A stretch of 19,730 nt of DNA, from assembly GCA_048941015.1 (NCBI GenBank), contig JBHLNZ010000054.1, positions 1 through 19,730 on the forward strand, written 5' to 3'. The notes under the pieces are model-generated. The model searched no databases. It was not told the DNA's origin and was given only the letters and a program-made list of their open reading frames with translations. Position 1 is the first letter of the stretch, and every line of letters starts with the position of its first letter. The DNA comes from Promethearchaeota archaeon. GTDB lineage: Archaea > Asgardarchaeota > Lokiarchaeia > Sigyniarchaeales > SOKP01. A program made the translations under genes and the position numbers. Below, piece after piece: positions 2,711-7,786 of this stretch.

Positions 2711-3157
2711 GTGATTCAAACAATCCAGTTAAGTACAGGTATAGATTTAGAATTTGATGATAAGGCTCCCAACACTCTTTTCGAAATTGTTATTAGTGAT
2801 ATTTTAATCCCAAGGTACAAAGAGAATAAGGATTGGAATTTGAGTTTAAATATTATCATTGAAGAGATGAATCGGTTAATTAGTAAATATGAATTGGATC
2901 CAAAATTGAAATTAGGACTTTTAAATCAAGTAGAAGAACATTTGGATAAGGATATTGAAGAATTGACGGGGACAGCAAAGATTGAAATATTATTTCTAAA
3001 TATGGATGACTATGTAGAAGATATAAAAAAATTGATATCTGCCGGGAAAACAAAAGAGGATTTAAGAAATGATATGGCAAGATTGATTTTTCCTTTAACA
3101 TTGTTCGAATTAGGTGAATTATTTATCTATTTAGGTAAAAGGGCTTTTTTAAAGTAA
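2711..3157 (+). CDS. Hypothetical helical protein (148 aa)
   Basis: GAGGT Shine-Dalgarno just upstream of a GTG start; typical composition; no recognised motif. Confidence 0.75.
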   Translation: MIQTIQLSTGIDLEFDDKAPNTLFEIVISDILIPRYKENKDWNLSLNIIIEEMNRLISKYELDPKLKLGLLNQVEEHLDKDIEELTGTAKIEILFLNMDDYVEDIKKLISAGKTKEDLRNDMARLIFPLTLFELGELFIYLGKRAFLK

Positions 3158-3596: not shown

Positions 3597-4622
3597 TTAT
3601 AAAGTTTCAAGATATTCTTTTTTTTCAGTCTCAGAGGATTTATACAATGCCAATATTAACCTTAAAACTTTTGAGCTTTCCTCGATGGTATTATAGAAGG
3701 GAATACCATCTAAAATCCAATTTCTAAAAGCTTCAATACATCCAGTTAAATATTTATTATTTTTTCCATCATTATGAAGATTAGAATGAGATATTCCATA
3801 CCATTTTAAGAAAGAAGGCCACATACAACTATACTCTAGCCTTCCTCTTTCGCCAAATAGTTCTAATTGAGCGAGATCAATTGATTCTGCTCTCATTTGA
3901 GGTTGTGGTATCATAGAACAATTTACCTGTCCAAGTTCTCCATTCTTAAACTCAATTATACCAAATCCAACATCTTCTACTTCAATATTTTTAAATTTTA
4001 AGGTTGCAATTTTTCCTATTACTGATTTCGGCTCTCCTAATGACCATATAAGGATATCCATAATATGAGATCCATGCATCAGTAATGTACCCCCACCAGC
4101 AGAACTTTTTTTCGTCCTCCAGTCTCCCTTATCGAAATAATCTAAATCTCTACTAAAATAAATATTGCAATTAAAGTAATAGATATTACCTAGAATGTTA
4201 TTATTTAAACCTTCAATCAGATTTTTGGCATTTTTATCATATCTATATTGGTAATTGAATCCAAGTTTTAAGGAGGGATATTTTTTATCTAACTTATTTA
4301 TCTCACGAGTATCTTCTAATGTTGAGGCAACTGGTTTCTCGCAAAAAGCATGTTTATTGTTTTCAAAAGCTTGTTTAATATTGAATTTATGAAAATTATG
4401 GGGAGTTGCGATATAGACAGCATCAATATCTTCATTATCATACATCTTTTGGACATCGGTATATGCGTGGTTTTTTCCGGCTATTTTTTGTGCTTTTGTG
4501 ATGTTAGCATCTGTTCCAGCAACTATTTTTATATTGCTAACAAATTTTGAAAATAACTTAAATTCCTTTGCCATTTGACCGCATCCAATAATTCCAATTT
4601 TTAAAAACTTATTTTGTTTCAA
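3597..4622 (-). CDS. Gfo/Idh/MocA-family NAD(P)-dependent oxidoreductase
   Basis: IGIIGCG Rossmann motif, IATP...H, CEKP, GFNYQYRY, GGG.L..HGSH..D. GGAGG SD; 12 nt downstream of the ThuA gene. Confidence 0.92.
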   Translation of the reverse strand: MKQNKFLKIGIIGCGQMAKEFKLFSKFVSNIKIVAGTDANITKAQKIAGKNHAYTDVQKMYDNEDIDAVYIATPHNFHKFNIKQAFENNKHAFCEKPVASTLEDTREINKLDKKYPSLKLGFNYQYRYDKNAKNLIEGLNNNILGNIYYFNCNIYFSRDLDYFDKGDWRTKKSSAGGGTLLMHGSHIMDILIWSLGEPKSVIGKIATLKFKNIEVEDVGFGIIEFKNGELGQVNCSMIPQPQMRAESIDLAQLELFGERGRLEYSCMWPSFLKWYGISHSNLHNDGKNNKYLTGCIEAFRNWILDGIPFYNTIEESSKVLRLILALYKSSETEKKEYLETL

Positions 4623-5366: not shown

Positions 5367-6164
5367 CTATTTAAATTTTACAATTTCTGCTGTACGATAT
5401 AAATAATCGAAATAATAATTGGAGCCAGGACCAAATGCTATATGATCTGTGATAACTCCAAAGTAACTTAACTTTTTGAAAAAACGTTGAGTAAGGATTA
5501 TAAATGCGTCTTCTCCCTCGTCAATTACTACACAATTTCCAAAAACTTGATCTCTGCTTTTAATTTCTGAAATTGCACTGTATTCCTTAAGTAATTCTTT
5601 GAATTGCTTATCGTTTAAAGCATTCTCTTCAACAAGGATTTTAATATCTGTGACTCCCCTTGCTCTTGCTTTTTTCATATCATCATGAAATACTTCTAAG
5701 AATTCATAATCTGGAGCTACTAAATAAATAGAATTTTTTGCTAAATTAATGAGAGCTAAGCATCTATTTATACAAACATCTCTGCCTCTATGAATATAGA
5801 GGGCTATTTTGATTGGTGTATCATGTGATTGATAAATTGGAGTTAAACTTTGAATAATTTTATTTGAATGCTCGTCGAAACTATCATTATATTGCTTTTT
5901 GGCAATAACTAAAGCCTCATCAGGGGATTTAGCAAAATATCGGGATGGTCGACTCTCTTCCTCTTTAATTATCCACATTTTCTCCTTTTCAAGCTGGGTA
6001 AGGATATTGTAGATACGTGAATAGGGGACTCCAGAAGCTTCTGACAATTCACGAGCATCCATTGGACCTTTTGAAATTAAAGTGAGATAAATTGCTATTT
6101 CATAATCGGTAAGACCGATTGAACGAAGAGACTCTTTTACATTTTCCGGTATTTCCTTAGACAT
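5367..6164 (-). CDS. TrmB-family sugar-sensing transcriptional regulator
   Basis: GLTDYE..IYLTL...GP..ARELSEASGVPYSRIY.IL..L N-terminal wHTH, RPSRYFA, C-terminal effector domain. GGTGA SD at 6171-6175. Confidence 0.9.
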   Translation of the reverse strand: MSKEIPENVKESLRSIGLTDYEIAIYLTLISKGPMDARELSEASGVPYSRIYNILTQLEKEKMWIIKEEESRPSRYFAKSPDEALVIAKKQYNDSFDEHSNKIIQSLTPIYQSHDTPIKIALYIHRGRDVCINRCLALINLAKNSIYLVAPDYEFLEVFHDDMKKARARGVTDIKILVEENALNDKQFKELLKEYSAISEIKSRDQVFGNCVVIDEGEDAFIILTQRFFKKLSYFGVITDHIAFGPGSNYYFDYLYRTAEIVKFK

Positions 6165-6249
6165 AATCCTTCACCATTTATCAAAACCGTGTAATTTAAG
6201 AGGTTATAAGCATATATAAGAATTTTGTTAATTAATAAATAAAAATAAT

Positions 6250-6272
6250 TCATCATATAAAAAATATGATGA
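6250..6272. repeat. Perfect 9-bp inverted repeat (TCATCATAT-N5-ATATGATGA); possible operator or 3' hairpin
   Basis: Read directly from sequence; lies between the SECIS-like element and the likely trmB TATA box (~6212-6219). Confidence 0.5.
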
Positions 6273-6312
6273 TCAGTATGATTATTACCTTTTTCTTTAA
6301 ACCCGTGCGGGG

Positions 6313-6356
6313 TAAGTCATCATGCAACTAATTTTTTTTCGCATGGATCATCCTTA
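6313..6356 (-). promoter_or_regulatory. Eukaryote-type SECIS-like element (kink-turn hairpin) in 3' UTR
   Basis: Minus strand UAAG-GAU-GA-UC-CAUGCGA-AAAAAAAUUAG-UUGCAUG-AU-GA-CUUA: helix I UAAG/CUUA, AUGA...UGA core with tandem G.A/A.G and U.U, upper stem CAUGCGA/UUGCAUG, A-rich apical region. Confidence 0.72.
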
Positions 6357-6545
6357 AAGAATTTTTAATATTAACAACAATTTGGATATTCCAAGACAAG
6401 GTCAACCATCTCCATTAGTAGTGTCAGGCGCAAAAATATCTATTATATATATTATGATCAATACAAAAGAAATTATCAACGCAATCGCGAAAATAATTAG
6501 CAAAATTCTTTTTAATTTTTCGTTTTCTAATAATCGTGGTGTCAT
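6354..6545 (-). CDS. Candidate small single-pass membrane selenoprotein (63 aa, UGA at codon 48, UxC motif)
   Basis: MTPRLLENEKLKRILLIIFAIALIISFVLIIIYIIDIFAPDTTNGDG-U-PCLGISKLLLILKIL*. In-frame TGA at 6404-6402, TAA at 6356-6354, SECIS-like hairpin directly after, TTTTATAT box 25 nt upstream of ATG. Confidence 0.7.
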
Positions 6546-6569
6546 GATGTTAAATATTTATTTTAGTAA

Positions 6570-6577
6570 ATATAAAA
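6570..6577 (-). promoter_or_regulatory. Putative TATA box (leaderless transcript of the 6545-6354 ORF)
   Basis: TTTTATAT on the minus strand ending 25 nt before the ATG at 6545. Confidence 0.45.
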
Positions 6578-6737
6578 TTGATTGCGTCAATTCAATAAAA
6601 AATTATATTTTTAGCGTTATTAACAATAGGATTACTATTAATAAATACTATAAATAAAAAAAAGGAAATTAATTTTTTTTCTCTTTTACCGTTTCAGACA
6701 AGTTCCAAGCAATTACAGTAGCAAAGCTCAGTTTCCT

Positions 6738-7499
6738 TTAGGAATGGATATCAGTCCCACCATCAACTATGATGGTTTGTCCTGTAATGTAATTAGAGTC
6801 ACTGCTAGCAAGGAACACAACTGTCCGACCAATGTCCTCCTCGCAGTCACCGATTCGTCCGAGTGGAATTTGTGCCATTGATGCCTCATACTGTTCAGGG
6901 AAGTTCTCCTTCCACATGATCATCCCTGGAGAATTCGCGGCAGGGCAGACGACATTTACATTAATCCCTTGCTTTCCCCACTCACGAGCTGCTACACCCG
7001 TAATCGCTCGGATTGCTTCTTTGGTTGCCGAGTAGGGTGTGAAGCCCACCATCCGTTGGGTTCCGGCACCCGAAGCAAAGTTGATGATCTTACCACCCCT
7101 ATCCTTCATATGCGGGAAGCAGGCTTTCATGAAGTAGAATGTCCCCATAAGACCCGATCCCAGCGTCAAATCCCAATCCTCTCGCGTTATTTCCACAAAG
7201 GGAGTACTTGGTCGTGGAACACTTTGCGCGTTATTTACCAGAATATCAATAGCCCCATATTCGTCAATTGCGGTCTGTACAACCTTATTTACATCATCAG
7301 GTTTACTGACATCACAATTAATAGCCATCGCCTTGGCACCCAAGTCTCGCAGTTCATTAACTGTTGAGTTTGCAGTTTCTTCATTAATTTCAGCAACGAT
7401 GACGGTTGCACCTTCCTTTGCAAATGCAAGGGCTATACCTCTTCCAACGCCCTGACCTGACCCTGTTACAATGGCGACTTTATTATCCAATTTACCCAT
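6738..7499 (-). CDS. Short-chain dehydrogenase/reductase (FabG-like SDR)
   Basis: TGSGQGVG, NNAQ, YSATK catalytic motif, ITGQTIIVDGG. GGTGA SD at 7506-7510 favours ATG 7499. Confidence 0.93.
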   Translation of the reverse strand: MGKLDNKVAIVTGSGQGVGRGIALAFAKEGATVIVAEINEETANSTVNELRDLGAKAMAINCDVSKPDDVNKVVQTAIDEYGAIDILVNNAQSVPRPSTPFVEITREDWDLTLGSGLMGTFYFMKACFPHMKDRGGKIINFASGAGTQRMVGFTPYSATKEAIRAITGVAAREWGKQGINVNVVCPAANSPGMIMWKENFPEQYEASMAQIPLGRIGDCEEDIGRTVVFLASSDSNYITGQTIIVDGGTDIHS

Positions 7500-7786
7500 A
7501 ATCAATCACCTTATGTGAACTAAATATTTTTAATATTTTAATAATACTTTCTTTTTTATTTTCCTAAAAATTACTGCAAATTTTTTTTAAGAAATTATTA
7601 AATTTAAATATTATACAATTTGGTATAAAGTGTAGAATTAGATTAATTAGAGTTAACTTTCTTTAAATTCTCTATAACTTTATTAAAAGTAAAGGGAGAT
7701 AGACTTTTTTAAGATATAAATTGATTCATCAACAACACTATGTATATTTTTGACTTCCAACTAGTGCGAATATATTTTAAATTTTA

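What the first reader, a model, noticed from the sequence alone, without database searches (positions are those of the whole stretch)
6354..6545. Hidden 63-aa membrane selenoprotein candidate (G-D-G-U-P-C) missed by ORF calling
Seen: the minus strand has a TATA-like box, ATG 6545, a basic N-terminus, a ~22-residue hydrophobic helix, a polar linker, then GGT-TGA-CCT-TGT (G-U-P-C) and 13 more codons to TAA 6354. A SECIS-like hairpin starts at that TAA, with its core about 50 nt from the UGA. Established: Lokiarchaeota decode Sec with eukaryote-like 3'-UTR SECIS elements; Sec usually sits near a resolving Cys; eukaryotic SELENOK/SELENOS are small single-pass membrane proteins with Sec in a Gly-rich context near the C-terminus. 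Inference: this is a small membrane redox selenoprotein unlike the classic archaeal Sec enzymes (HdrA, VhuD/U, Fdh, SelD). The SelK/SelS resemblance is architectural only, not shown homology. Novelty against published Asgard selenoproteomes is unverified.
Basis: partly seen in the sequence, partly recalled or inferred. Interest (0 to 1): 0.93.

Follow-up and report, generated by a model that had tools for sequence, protein, structure and literature searches.

The report
New small membrane selenoprotein, Lokiarchaeia
An unannotated 63-codon gene in this Loki-type (Asgard) archaeon almost certainly reads an internal stop codon as selenocysteine. It founds a fast-evolving family of tiny one-helix membrane proteins that is absent from the published archaeal selenoprotein lists I read.

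Summary
On the minus strand the ORF starts at ATG 6545, has TGA at codon 48 (6404-6402, motif G-D-G-U-P-C) and stops at TAA 6356-6354. Two bases later comes a hairpin with exact lokiSECIS geometry: AUGA, 9-nt stem, 11-nt A-rich loop ending AG, 9-nt stem, GA.

The genome has tRNA-Sec, SepSecS, a PSTK-like gene, a Sec-containing SelD and a SelB-like factor.

Homologues occur in 37 of 42 genomes of the genus and in at least five other genera of the same family. All 56 distinct copies I inspected carry TGA at the aligned position, and 55 have a strict SECIS 43-121 nt downstream. The SECIS helices covary. No Cys-for-Sec form turned up in two protein-library searches. Public records hold only 47-aa stubs cut at the TGA.

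Charge bias predicts an N-in/C-out topology, which puts the Gly-rich Sec(-x-Cys) loop on the outer face of the membrane. The function is inferred to be a tethered selenol/thiol redox centre or a soft-metal site.

Homology to SELENOK or SELENOS is not supported; the resemblance is architectural only.

The residues after the Sec codon are weakly constrained apart from the Cys.

Earlier notes of this scan describe similar tiny membrane selenoproteins on other DNA (e1-5570552, e1-5393445, e1-5051596).

The parts
6546..6580 (-). AT-rich upstream region with a TATA-like TTTATATT (about 6576-6569), 24-31 nt before the ATG. It is a possible archaeal promoter for a leaderless or short-leader mRNA.
   Evidence: Read from the sequence. 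Upstream regions of the homologues are all AT-rich with varied TATA-like runs. This is not discriminating in 29% GC DNA, so it is inference only.
6354..6545 (-). Selenoprotein ORF of 63 codons plus TAA: ATG 6545-6543, Sec codon TGA 6404-6402, stop TAA 6356-6354.
   Evidence: Homologues with the same layout occur in 37 of 42 genus genomes and in other genera. The part before the Sec codon has a coding signature: differences at codon positions 1/2/3 are 456/232/531.
6507..6545 (-). Residues 1-13, the basic N-terminal segment (4 K/R), predicted to be cytoplasmic.
   Evidence: across 56 members the median is 4 K/R on the N side (mean net charge +2.6) against a net -1.4 in the 12 residues after the helix.
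6441..6506 (-). Residues 14-35, the single transmembrane helix.
   Evidence: Hydrophobic run. AF2 models a helix over residues 9-38 with pLDDT about 87-90.
6405..6440 (-). Residues 36-47, an acidic/polar linker ending N-G-D-G (N-G-G-G in most homologues).
   Evidence: Alignment A1: G45-G47 are at least 90% conserved. AF2 models a loop with pLDDT about 50.
6402..6404 (-). UGA read as selenocysteine (residue 48).
   Evidence: It is the only invariant column in A1 and A3. It is TGA in all 56 distinct members. It lies 53 nt upstream of the SECIS AUGA.
6396..6398 (-). Cys50 (TGT), the likely resolving partner in the U-x-C motif.
   Evidence: A Cys lies within +1 to +4 in 45 of 56 members and is encoded by both TGT and TGC. 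Six others have a Cys 2-3 residues upstream instead.
6357..6395 (-). Residues 51-63, a short hydrophobic tail. It is weakly constrained and also acts as the spacer between the UGA and the SECIS.
   Evidence: AF2 models a helix over residues 50-62 with pLDDT about 60. There is no codon periodicity in close pairs: 150/161/160. The tail is absent in one genus, where the protein ends G-G-G-U-G or G-G-G-U-C, yet the UGA-SECIS spacing is kept at 43-45 nt.
6293..6361 (-). Complete SECIS element, a three-way junction. Lower helix 6361-6354 pairs with 6300-6293 and includes the TAA stop. The rest is AUGA 6351-6348, upper stem 6347-6339 / 6327-6319, apical loop 6338-6328, GA 6318-6317 and third-arm hairpin 6313-6301.
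   Evidence: The geometry equals the lokiSECIS of Mariotti 2016. Covariation on A2: 92% of cells paired and 8 of 15 pairs with compensatory change, against 31-52% paired in slid controls. A third arm was found in 39 of 55 members and a closing helix in 40 of 55. The same third arm follows the HdrA-VhuD SECIS elements of this genome. Model R1 scores this site at 76 bits and also finds the HdrA-VhuD elements on C44, C131 and C137.
5367..6164 (-). Context: a TrmB-family regulator gene directly downstream on the same strand.
   Evidence: It is present downstream of the small gene in all 48 loci fetched from the genus, at 75-83% amino-acid identity where full-length. Pfam TrmB and TrmB_EBD_N match in a near relative. 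It does not accompany the family in other genera.

Best explanation
This is a real selenoprotein gene that gene callers cut at its UGA.

Recoding (about 0.9 likely). The mRNA carries a Loki-type SECIS that begins 2 nt after the TAA stop. It has a kink-turn AUGA/GA core, a 9-pair stem and an 11-nt A-rich loop, plus a side hairpin and a closing helix. The SECIS recruits the archaeal/eukaryote-type Sec machinery of this genome, so that the UGA 53 nt upstream is read as selenocysteine.

Product (inferred from sequence). The product is a 63-residue single-pass membrane protein. A basic N-terminus stays in the cytoplasm and one helix spans the membrane. A flexible acidic, Gly-rich loop then presents Sec48-Pro-Cys50 at the outer face. 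A short, poorly conserved hydrophobic helix follows; it probably lies in or on the membrane and also provides the UGA-to-SECIS spacing.

Chemistry (inferred, about 0.4 likely). The Sec/Cys pair works as a membrane-tethered selenenylsulfide redox couple at the cell surface, acting as a thiol/disulfide exchanger or peroxide scavenger, in the manner of the flexible Sec-bearing C-terminal tails of thioredoxin reductase, SELENOK and SELENOS. That comparison rests on my own recall of those proteins.
For: Machinery: SepSecS at 474 bits with tRNA-Sec next to it, a PSTK-like gene, SelD with an in-frame TGA and a SelB-like factor on the same contig as SepSecS.

SECIS: the geometry and loop sequence are identical to a HdrA-VhuD SECIS of the same genome. 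There are 7 strict hits against 0.3 expected. Covariation supports the fold. A covariance model built from the family retrieves the HdrA-VhuD elements.

Conservation: a TGA-bearing homologue is found in 37 of 42 genus genomes and in genera g18, g20, g27, g28 and g29. TGA is invariant in 56 distinct copies, while TAA makes up 74% of ordinary stops. A Cys lies near the Sec in 51 of 56 copies, with synonymous codon use after the TGA. The frame stays open up to the SECIS, and the spacing is 51-60 nt within the genus. A decayed copy has lost both ORF and SECIS.

Topology: charge bias and the AF2 helix-loop-helix model.
Against: - No Cys-containing homologue was found anywhere, so the usual Sec/Cys alignment test cannot be applied.
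- Apart from the Cys, the residues after the UGA show no codon-position constraint.
- There is no expression, 75Se or mass-spectrometry evidence.
- On function: neighbouring genes differ between genera and suggest no partner.
- No DsbD/CcdA or VKOR-type relay that could recycle an outward-facing redox centre was found in this 95%-complete genome.
- Five members have no Cys near the Sec.
Confidence: 0.8

Rival explanations
1. The gene and the recoding are the same, but the outward-facing selenolate, with its neighbouring Cys and acidic residues, is a binding site for a soft metal or metalloid (Ni, Co, Zn, Cu, Cd, Hg) rather than a redox couple. It would capture, hand over or sequester the metal at the membrane surface of a sediment anaerobe.
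For: The linkers are acidic, and one subfamily has runs of 5-6 Asp before a C-x-x-U motif. No external thiol-redox relay was found. Three members give a weak below-threshold match to the FeoB-associated Cys-rich membrane protein family, which has a helix plus a Gly/Cys tail (E 0.14-0.18). Sec occurs in metal-handling proteins such as MerT-like and HgcB families (Haft and Gwadz preprint).
Against: No metal transporter or metallochaperone is a conserved neighbour. The Pfam match is far below the cut-off. Most known selenoproteins use Sec in redox catalysis (my own recall).
Confidence: 0.25
2. The UGA is an ordinary stop. The product is a 47-residue membrane peptide ending in G-G-G, and the downstream hairpin is a kink-turn RNA with another role, such as a terminator, a protein-binding site or part of the TrmB leader.
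For: The tail after the UGA lacks codon periodicity. Hairpin stability is not above shuffles. Public gene calls stop at 47 aa.
Against: TGA is used in all 56 copies although it is only 14% of stops in long ORFs. A Cys is conserved just after the supposed stop, with TGT/TGC alternation. The hairpin has the exact size, motifs and third arm of the SECIS elements behind HdrA-VhuD in the same genome. The element follows the family into genera where TrmB is not the neighbour.
Confidence: 0.05
3. The ORF is a selenium-sensing leader. Whether the UGA is decoded or terminates controls expression of the TrmB-family regulator downstream, and the peptide itself has no function.
For: Within the genus the small gene always lies about 180-250 nt upstream of the TrmB-like gene on the same strand (all 48 loci).
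Against: In other genera the family has other neighbours. The helix region is under coding constraint, which a pure leader would not need. A conserved AT-rich promoter-like block lies between the SECIS and the TrmB start.
Confidence: 0.05

Closest known systems
Lokiarchaeal selenoprotein genes with a type I lokiSECIS / Asgard eSECIS-like element (VhuU, HdrA-VhuD, Prx-like; Mariotti 2016 PMC4989117; Huang 2024 PMC11227280)
   Same: 3'-UTR SECIS with AUGA...GA, a 9-nt stem, and an 11-nt loop that starts with A's and ends AG. The same host lineage and machinery. The apical-loop sequence is identical to the SECIS behind a HdrA-VhuD pair in this genome.
   Different: The protein belongs to none of the seven reported Asgard families. 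It is a 63-residue membrane protein with no fold-level or sequence relative and no Cys form. Its UGA lies only 53 nt from the SECIS.
Eukaryotic SELENOK (Pfam SelK_SelG, PF10961) and SELENOS
   Same: Small single-pass membrane selenoproteins with Sec in a flexible Gly-rich segment near the C-terminus. One genus of this family ends P-P-P-N-G-G-G-U-G, with Sec penultimate, much like the SELENOK C-terminus as I recall it. Both use a kink-turn SECIS in the 3' UTR.
   Different: No sequence match at E <= 10 for 30 members. The predicted topology is opposite: Sec outside here, cytosolic in SELENOK and SELENOS (my recall). The linker is about 10 residues rather than about 50. Most members have a resolving Cys 2-4 residues after the Sec.
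FeoB-associated Cys-rich membrane protein (PF12669)
   Same: A tiny protein with one N-terminal helix followed by a Gly/Cys-rich tail.
   Different: Only 3 of 20 genus members and 1 of 10 others match, at E 0.14-0.18 and far below the 27-bit cut-off. This family has Sec, and no FeoB neighbour was seen among the neighbours I annotated.
Prokaryotic proteins with a C-terminal Cys-Sec tail (the Campylobacter/Helicobacter KCU-star DUF466 family, SaoC; Haft and Gwadz preprint 10.1101/2022.07.06.499078)
   Same: Sec at or next to the C-terminus beside a Cys, routinely cut off in databases at the UGA.
   Different: Those are bacterial and soluble and use an in-ORF bacterial SECIS. This family is archaeal, membrane-anchored and uses a 3'-UTR kink-turn SECIS.

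Membership tests
Selenoprotein gene decoded through a lokiSECIS (Asgard type I eSECIS-like) | In-frame UGA conserved among homologues | tested here: met
   TGA at the aligned codon in all 56 distinct copies; it is the only invariant column.
Selenoprotein gene decoded through a lokiSECIS (Asgard type I eSECIS-like) | 3'-UTR hairpin: AUGA, 9-nt stem, 11-nt loop starting with A's and ending (A)G, 9-nt stem, GA | tested here: met
   Exact match at 6351-6317 with 7 of 9 pairs. Found in 55 of 56 family members. Definition taken.
Selenoprotein gene decoded through a lokiSECIS (Asgard type I eSECIS-like) | Structure supported by compensatory changes | tested here: met
   8 of 15 pairs have changes on both sides; 92% of cells are paired against 31-52% when the partners are slid. 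The closing helix differs in sequence between genera but still pairs.
Selenoprotein gene decoded through a lokiSECIS (Asgard type I eSECIS-like) | Sec machinery in the genome (tRNA-Sec, PSTK, SepSecS, SelD, EFSec) | tested here: met
   The PSTK-like and SelB-like hits are below the curated cut-offs of models built on other lineages.
Selenoprotein gene decoded through a lokiSECIS (Asgard type I eSECIS-like) | Cys-containing homologues aligning with Sec | tested here: not met
   None in the 5.8-billion-protein word-indexed library or in the exhaustive search of 1.84 billion representatives. All hits stop at the TGA or read it as W. This is a usual supporting criterion for gene prediction, not a requirement for Sec decoding.
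Selenoprotein gene decoded through a lokiSECIS (Asgard type I eSECIS-like) | Coding conservation downstream of the UGA | tested here: inconclusive
   A Cys is conserved within 4 residues in 45 of 56 copies with synonymous codons, and the frame stays open to the SECIS. But there is no codon-position periodicity in the tail.
Selenoprotein gene decoded through a lokiSECIS (Asgard type I eSECIS-like) | Selenium actually incorporated | not testable with these tools
   Needs 75Se labelling or mass spectrometry.
SELENOK / SelK_SelG (PF10961) and Selenoprotein S | Sequence match to the family profile | tested here: not met
   Neither family appears at E <= 10 for 20 genus members or 10 members of other genera.
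SELENOK / SelK_SelG (PF10961) and Selenoprotein S | Sec-bearing tail on the cytosolic side of the membrane | tested here: not met
   Charge bias predicts N-in/C-out, which places the Sec outside. This is a prediction only. The SELENOK/SELENOS topology is from my own recall.
Rfam SECIS_1 (eukaryotic SECIS, RF00031) | Match to the covariance model | tested here: not met
   No SECIS family was reported for 6230-6430 even at E <= 10 or at gathering score. The Loki stem is shorter than the eukaryotic one.
FeoB-associated Cys-rich membrane protein (PF12669) | Score above the Pfam gathering cut-off (27 bits) | tested here: not met
   Best score is 12.9 bits, E 0.14.

The most novel reading that the evidence does not exclude
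This family would be the archaeal counterpart, by descent and not only by analogy, of the eukaryotic single-pass membrane selenoproteins SELENOK and SELENOS: a 'selenol on a membrane stick' that already existed in the Asgard lineage. It would then be one of a whole hidden layer of Sec-only microproteins in Lokiarchaeia that homology-based selenoproteome surveys cannot see.
Probability: 0.1. Interest if true: 0.92.

Novelty: new variant of a known kind. Interest (0 to 1): 0.78.

Why it matters
Published Asgard selenoproteomes were built by homology to known families. They list seven families, all soluble redox enzymes or their subunits, and state that no eukaryote-type selenoprotein was found.

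This gene shows that the lineage also encodes Sec in tiny membrane proteins. These have no Cys relatives, are cut to 47-aa 'hypothetical proteins' in every database record I saw, and evolve much faster than their neighbours: 25-41% identity against 75-83% for the adjacent regulator.

Three things follow.
- Archaeal Sec use is wider than known, and the counts of Asgard selenoproteomes are underestimates.
- The family gives 55 natural variants of one short SECIS-UGA unit, with a defined minimum spacing of 43 nt, for studying how the Loki SECIS works.
- The origin of small membrane selenoproteins such as SELENOK becomes a question that can be put to experiment in cultured Lokiarchaeia.

Tried and rejected
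- Rfam, at gathering score and at E <= 10: no SECIS family matched, only chance-level C/D-box snoRNA hits that share the kink-turn letters.
- Hairpin stability against shuffles: uninformative.
- Pfam and NCBIfam on 30 members: only below-threshold matches of the 'basic stretch plus helix' type, such as ETRAMP and Sigma_reg_N.
- Search for Cys forms: the rows that the genome search marked 'no stop inside' looked like candidates. Ten such loci that I fetched (L097-L106) all turned out to carry the TGA just beyond the aligned part.
- The 87-aa and 73-aa database proteins are TGA=W read-throughs, not Cys forms.
- Gene neighbourhood as a guide to function: conserved inside each genus but different between genera (MFS transporters, ARMT1-like phosphatase, NUBPL-type ATPase, ferredoxin, ribophorin I, PGK). 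No partner emerged.
- DsbD/CcdA and VKOR as recycling partners: not found.
- Co-occurrence with the Sec machinery: SepSecS is in 146 of 154 genomes of the order, so it does not discriminate.
- A double-glycine leader or cleaved signal peptide: considered and rejected, because the hydrophobic run is 22-30 residues long and one genus has only one residue after the Sec.

Full report
**1. The observation**

Reading the minus strand gives the following:
- ATG at 6545-6543.
- A 13-residue basic N-terminus.
- A 22-residue hydrophobic run.
- A polar linker ending N-G-D-G.
- TGA at 6404-6402, then CCT TGT (Pro-Cys).
- 13 more codons and TAA at 6356-6354.

Ordinary ORF listing ends the gene at 47 aa. 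Two bases after the TAA the strand reads ATGA, 9 nt, 11 nt (seven A then TTAG), 9 nt, GA (6351-6317).

Mariotti et al. 2016 define the lokiSECIS by four features: AUGA before a 9-bp stem, an 11-nt apical loop whose first five bases are mostly A, a conserved G (usually AG) at the loop end, and GA after the stem. The hairpin fits all four. It forms 7 of 9 stem pairs, and the two unpaired positions sit next to the core.

**2. Is it more than chance?**

The genome is 29% GC, so AT-rich hairpins are cheap, and the fold is no more stable than shuffles. The strict pattern, however, occurs 7 times in the 3.59-Mb assembly against 0.3 expected from ten second-order Markov simulations.
- Three of the seven hits lie just after HdrA-VhuD gene pairs that themselves contain in-frame TGAs.
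- One of those three has the same 11-nt loop as the window's element.
- All the genuine-looking elements, this one included, are followed by a short side hairpin and are closed by pairing between the 5' flank and the sequence after that hairpin. An earlier agent of this scan had noted this third arm (e1-5793908).

**3. Sec machinery**

The assembly holds:
- SepSecS at 474 bits.
- tRNA-Sec at 61 bits, 70 nt away from SepSecS.
- A PSTK-like gene.
- SelD with one in-frame TGA.
- A SelB-like factor 3.4 kb from SepSecS.

**4. Relatives**

A translated search of 60 related genomes found about 30 small frames with exactly one TGA. The DNA just after them, which is the SECIS, is 72-83% identical.

Twenty genus orthologues align with Sec as the only invariant residue. 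G45-G47 are at least 90% conserved, and the motif is N-G-G-G-U-x-C, or U-P-S-T-C / U-P-N-I-C.

Searching with the profile of that alignment gave this distribution:
- A TGA-bearing copy in 37 of 42 genomes of the genus.
- Weaker TGA-bearing hits in five further genera of the same family.
- Nothing convincing in the three sister families of the order.

I fetched 40 of the weaker or doubtful loci. Every one has a basic N-terminus, one helix, a Gly-rich stretch and a TGA, and nearly all also show a lokiSECIS. This includes all ten that the tool had listed as having no internal stop.

The variants are informative:
- One genus ends P-P-P-N-G-G-G-U-G or -U-C, with Sec penultimate.
- Others have C-G-U-G-G, C-L-P-U-G, or no Cys at all (G-G-U-P-G-A).
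- One subfamily has a poly-Asp run, C-x-x-U-K-R and a longer C-terminal extension of about 45-55 residues.

Counting distinct copies, 56 of 56 have TGA at the site. Of these, 45 have a Cys within four residues after it, 6 have a Cys 2-3 residues before it, and 5 have none.

In long ORFs of this genome TAA is 74% of stops and TGA 14%. The family's own terminators are TAA 36, TGA 17 and TAG 2.

**5. The SECIS**

On the gap-free 79-column alignment of 20 elements:
- 92% of cells form standard pairs, against 31-52% when the partners are slid.
- 8 of 15 pairs show compensatory changes.
- No shuffle reaches the observed covariation score.

With the SECIS helix constrained, the minimum-energy fold gives the third arm in 39 of 55 distinct elements and the closing helix in 40 of 55. 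The closing sequences differ between genera (CCGAA/TTCGG, CCCAGG/CTGGGG, CTTTAA/TTAAAG).

A covariance model built only from this family scores the window at 76 bits. It also finds the HdrA-VhuD elements on contigs C44, C131 and C137, plus two elements behind other unannotated small ORFs.

The distance from UGA to AUGA is 43-121 nt, and 51-60 nt within the genus. In the genus where the ORF stops one codon after Sec, the spacing is still 43-45 nt. A second TGA used as the true stop lies within 5 nt of, or inside, the AUGA in 14 of the 17 such copies.

In genome G032 the syntenic copy has lost the helix region, is out of frame and lacks the AUGA half of the SECIS. A divergent intact copy with its own SECIS sits elsewhere in that genome.

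**6. Coding evidence**

Among 58 close pairs, the region before the Sec codon shows the expected pattern: differences at codon positions 1/2/3 are 456/232/531. The tail after it does not (150/161/160; 57 synonymous against 308 replacement codon changes).

So, apart from the Cys, the tail is barely constrained as protein. Codons just after the TGA do vary synonymously: Pro uses CCA/CCT/CCG/CCC, Cys uses TGT/TGC and Gly uses all four codons.

My reading is that the conserved unit is the anchor plus G-G-G-U (plus a nearby Cys). The tail is tolerated hydrophobic sequence that also fills the required spacer.

**7. What the protein looks like**

The N side of the helix carries a median of 4 K/R (net +2.6). 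The 12 residues after the helix are net -1.4. By the positive-inside rule this puts the Sec loop outside the cell.

AF2 with the family alignment gives helix 9-38 (pLDDT about 88), a loop over 39-49 (about 50) and helix 50-62 (about 60).

The protein evolves fast: 25-41% identity within the genus, against 75-83% for the TrmB-like neighbour in the same loci.

**8. Context**

In the genus the gene order is FGGY kinase, small gene, TrmB-family regulator, ThuA, Gfo/Idh/MocA oxidoreductase. The SDR gene at 6738-7505 is peculiar to this genome.

Other genera place the family among unrelated genes. I therefore treat it as a stand-alone gene and reject the idea that it is a leader for TrmB.

**9. Function (inference)**

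The conserved features fit two roles: a selenenylsulfide redox centre and a soft-metal site. These features are a flexible Gly-rich segment, Sec, a Cys two to four residues away in most members, an acidic linker and an outward orientation.

I favour redox (about 0.4). Sec/Cys pairs in flexible tails are the recurrent design of thioredoxin reductase, SELENOK and SELENOS (my recall), and Sec is most often catalytic. Metal binding is the main rival (about 0.25). It is helped by the poly-Asp subfamily and by the absence of DsbD/CcdA or VKOR in this genome.

**10. Comparison with what is known**

The recoding apparatus is the published lokiSECIS system, so this is a member by every structural test.

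The protein is not in the five families of Mariotti 2016, in the seven of Huang 2024 or in the 2026 review. Two full-text searches found no report of it.

Pfam and NCBIfam give nothing above threshold, and SELENOK and SELENOS do not appear at E <= 10.

Two protein-library searches return only stubs that end at the TGA, or TGA=W read-throughs. Sources name them 'hypothetical protein' from Lokiarchaeota, Promethearchaeota or Hermodarchaeota MAGs.

**11. Earlier notes of this scan**

Follow-up agents have described similar tiny membrane selenoproteins on other DNA:
- A two-helix hypervariable family in another Loki-type genome (e1-5570552).
- A three-helix one in Helarchaeales (e1-5393445).
- A bacterial one-helix G-G-G-U-G family that does have Cys forms (e1-5051596).

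I could not compare sequences with those. My own searches found no Cys form for this family.

**12. Verdict**

The gene is a real, unannotated selenoprotein of a new family restricted, among the genomes searched, to one family of Lokiarchaeia. The recoding mechanism is well supported; the chemistry is inferred.

Noticed in passing
G000 contig C32, minus strand, SECIS AUGA at 3082 (outside the window): A frame of about 185 codons carries a G-C-U-U motif (two adjacent in-frame TGAs). It ends in a TGA that is part of the AUGA of a SECIS-like element with a 12-nt loop. Model R1 scores the element at 32.5 bits.
   Followed up: partly
G000 contig C20, minus strand, SECIS AUGA at 3819 (outside the window): A 37-residue zinc-ribbon-like ORF (C-x-x-C ... 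C-x-x-C) ends K-U followed at once by TAA. About 40 nt later comes a full lokiSECIS with a third arm (57.5 bits with R1). It may be a protein with Sec as its last residue.
   Followed up: partly
G000 contig C31, minus strand, SECIS AUGA at 43579 (outside the window): A frame of about 75 codons with a C-x-x-C motif and five in-frame TGAs runs into a lokiSECIS. Earlier readers linked it to a merA neighbour (e1-5794042, e1-5794043).
   Followed up: no
L038:1493-1610 (G032 contig C59, the syntenic slot between kinase and TrmB): A decayed copy of the family. The N-terminus is recognisable, but the helix region is deleted, the frame is shifted and the AUGA half of the SECIS is gone. The same genome keeps a divergent intact member (C-L-P-U-G) on contig C51.
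   Followed up: partly
L133, L134, L139 (genus g28): The C-x-x-U-K-R subfamily, which has a poly-Asp linker and a longer C-terminal extension, sits in a conserved block after a ribophorin-I-like gene and a Trm112-like gene. In two of the three loci a family-4 glycosyltransferase gene follows. This may link it to N-glycosylation at the membrane.
   Followed up: partly
window 6215-6242, minus strand: An AT-rich block containing the palindrome TTAATTAA lies about 50-80 nt upstream of the TrmB-like start. It is conserved in many genus loci and is probably the TrmB promoter or operator.
   Followed up: no
window 6738-7505, minus strand: The short-chain dehydrogenase gene between the FGGY kinase and the small gene has no counterpart in the 48 related loci. 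A near relative (L141) has a DUF1295/PEMT-like gene on the other strand at that place, so this slot is variable.
   Followed up: partly
P0002, P0003, P0076 (public protein records): A few database entries for this family were translated with TGA read as Trp. This produces 73-87-aa read-throughs that run across the SECIS. Most other entries are about 47-aa stubs, some with extra residues from an upstream start; all end at the TGA.
   Followed up: yes
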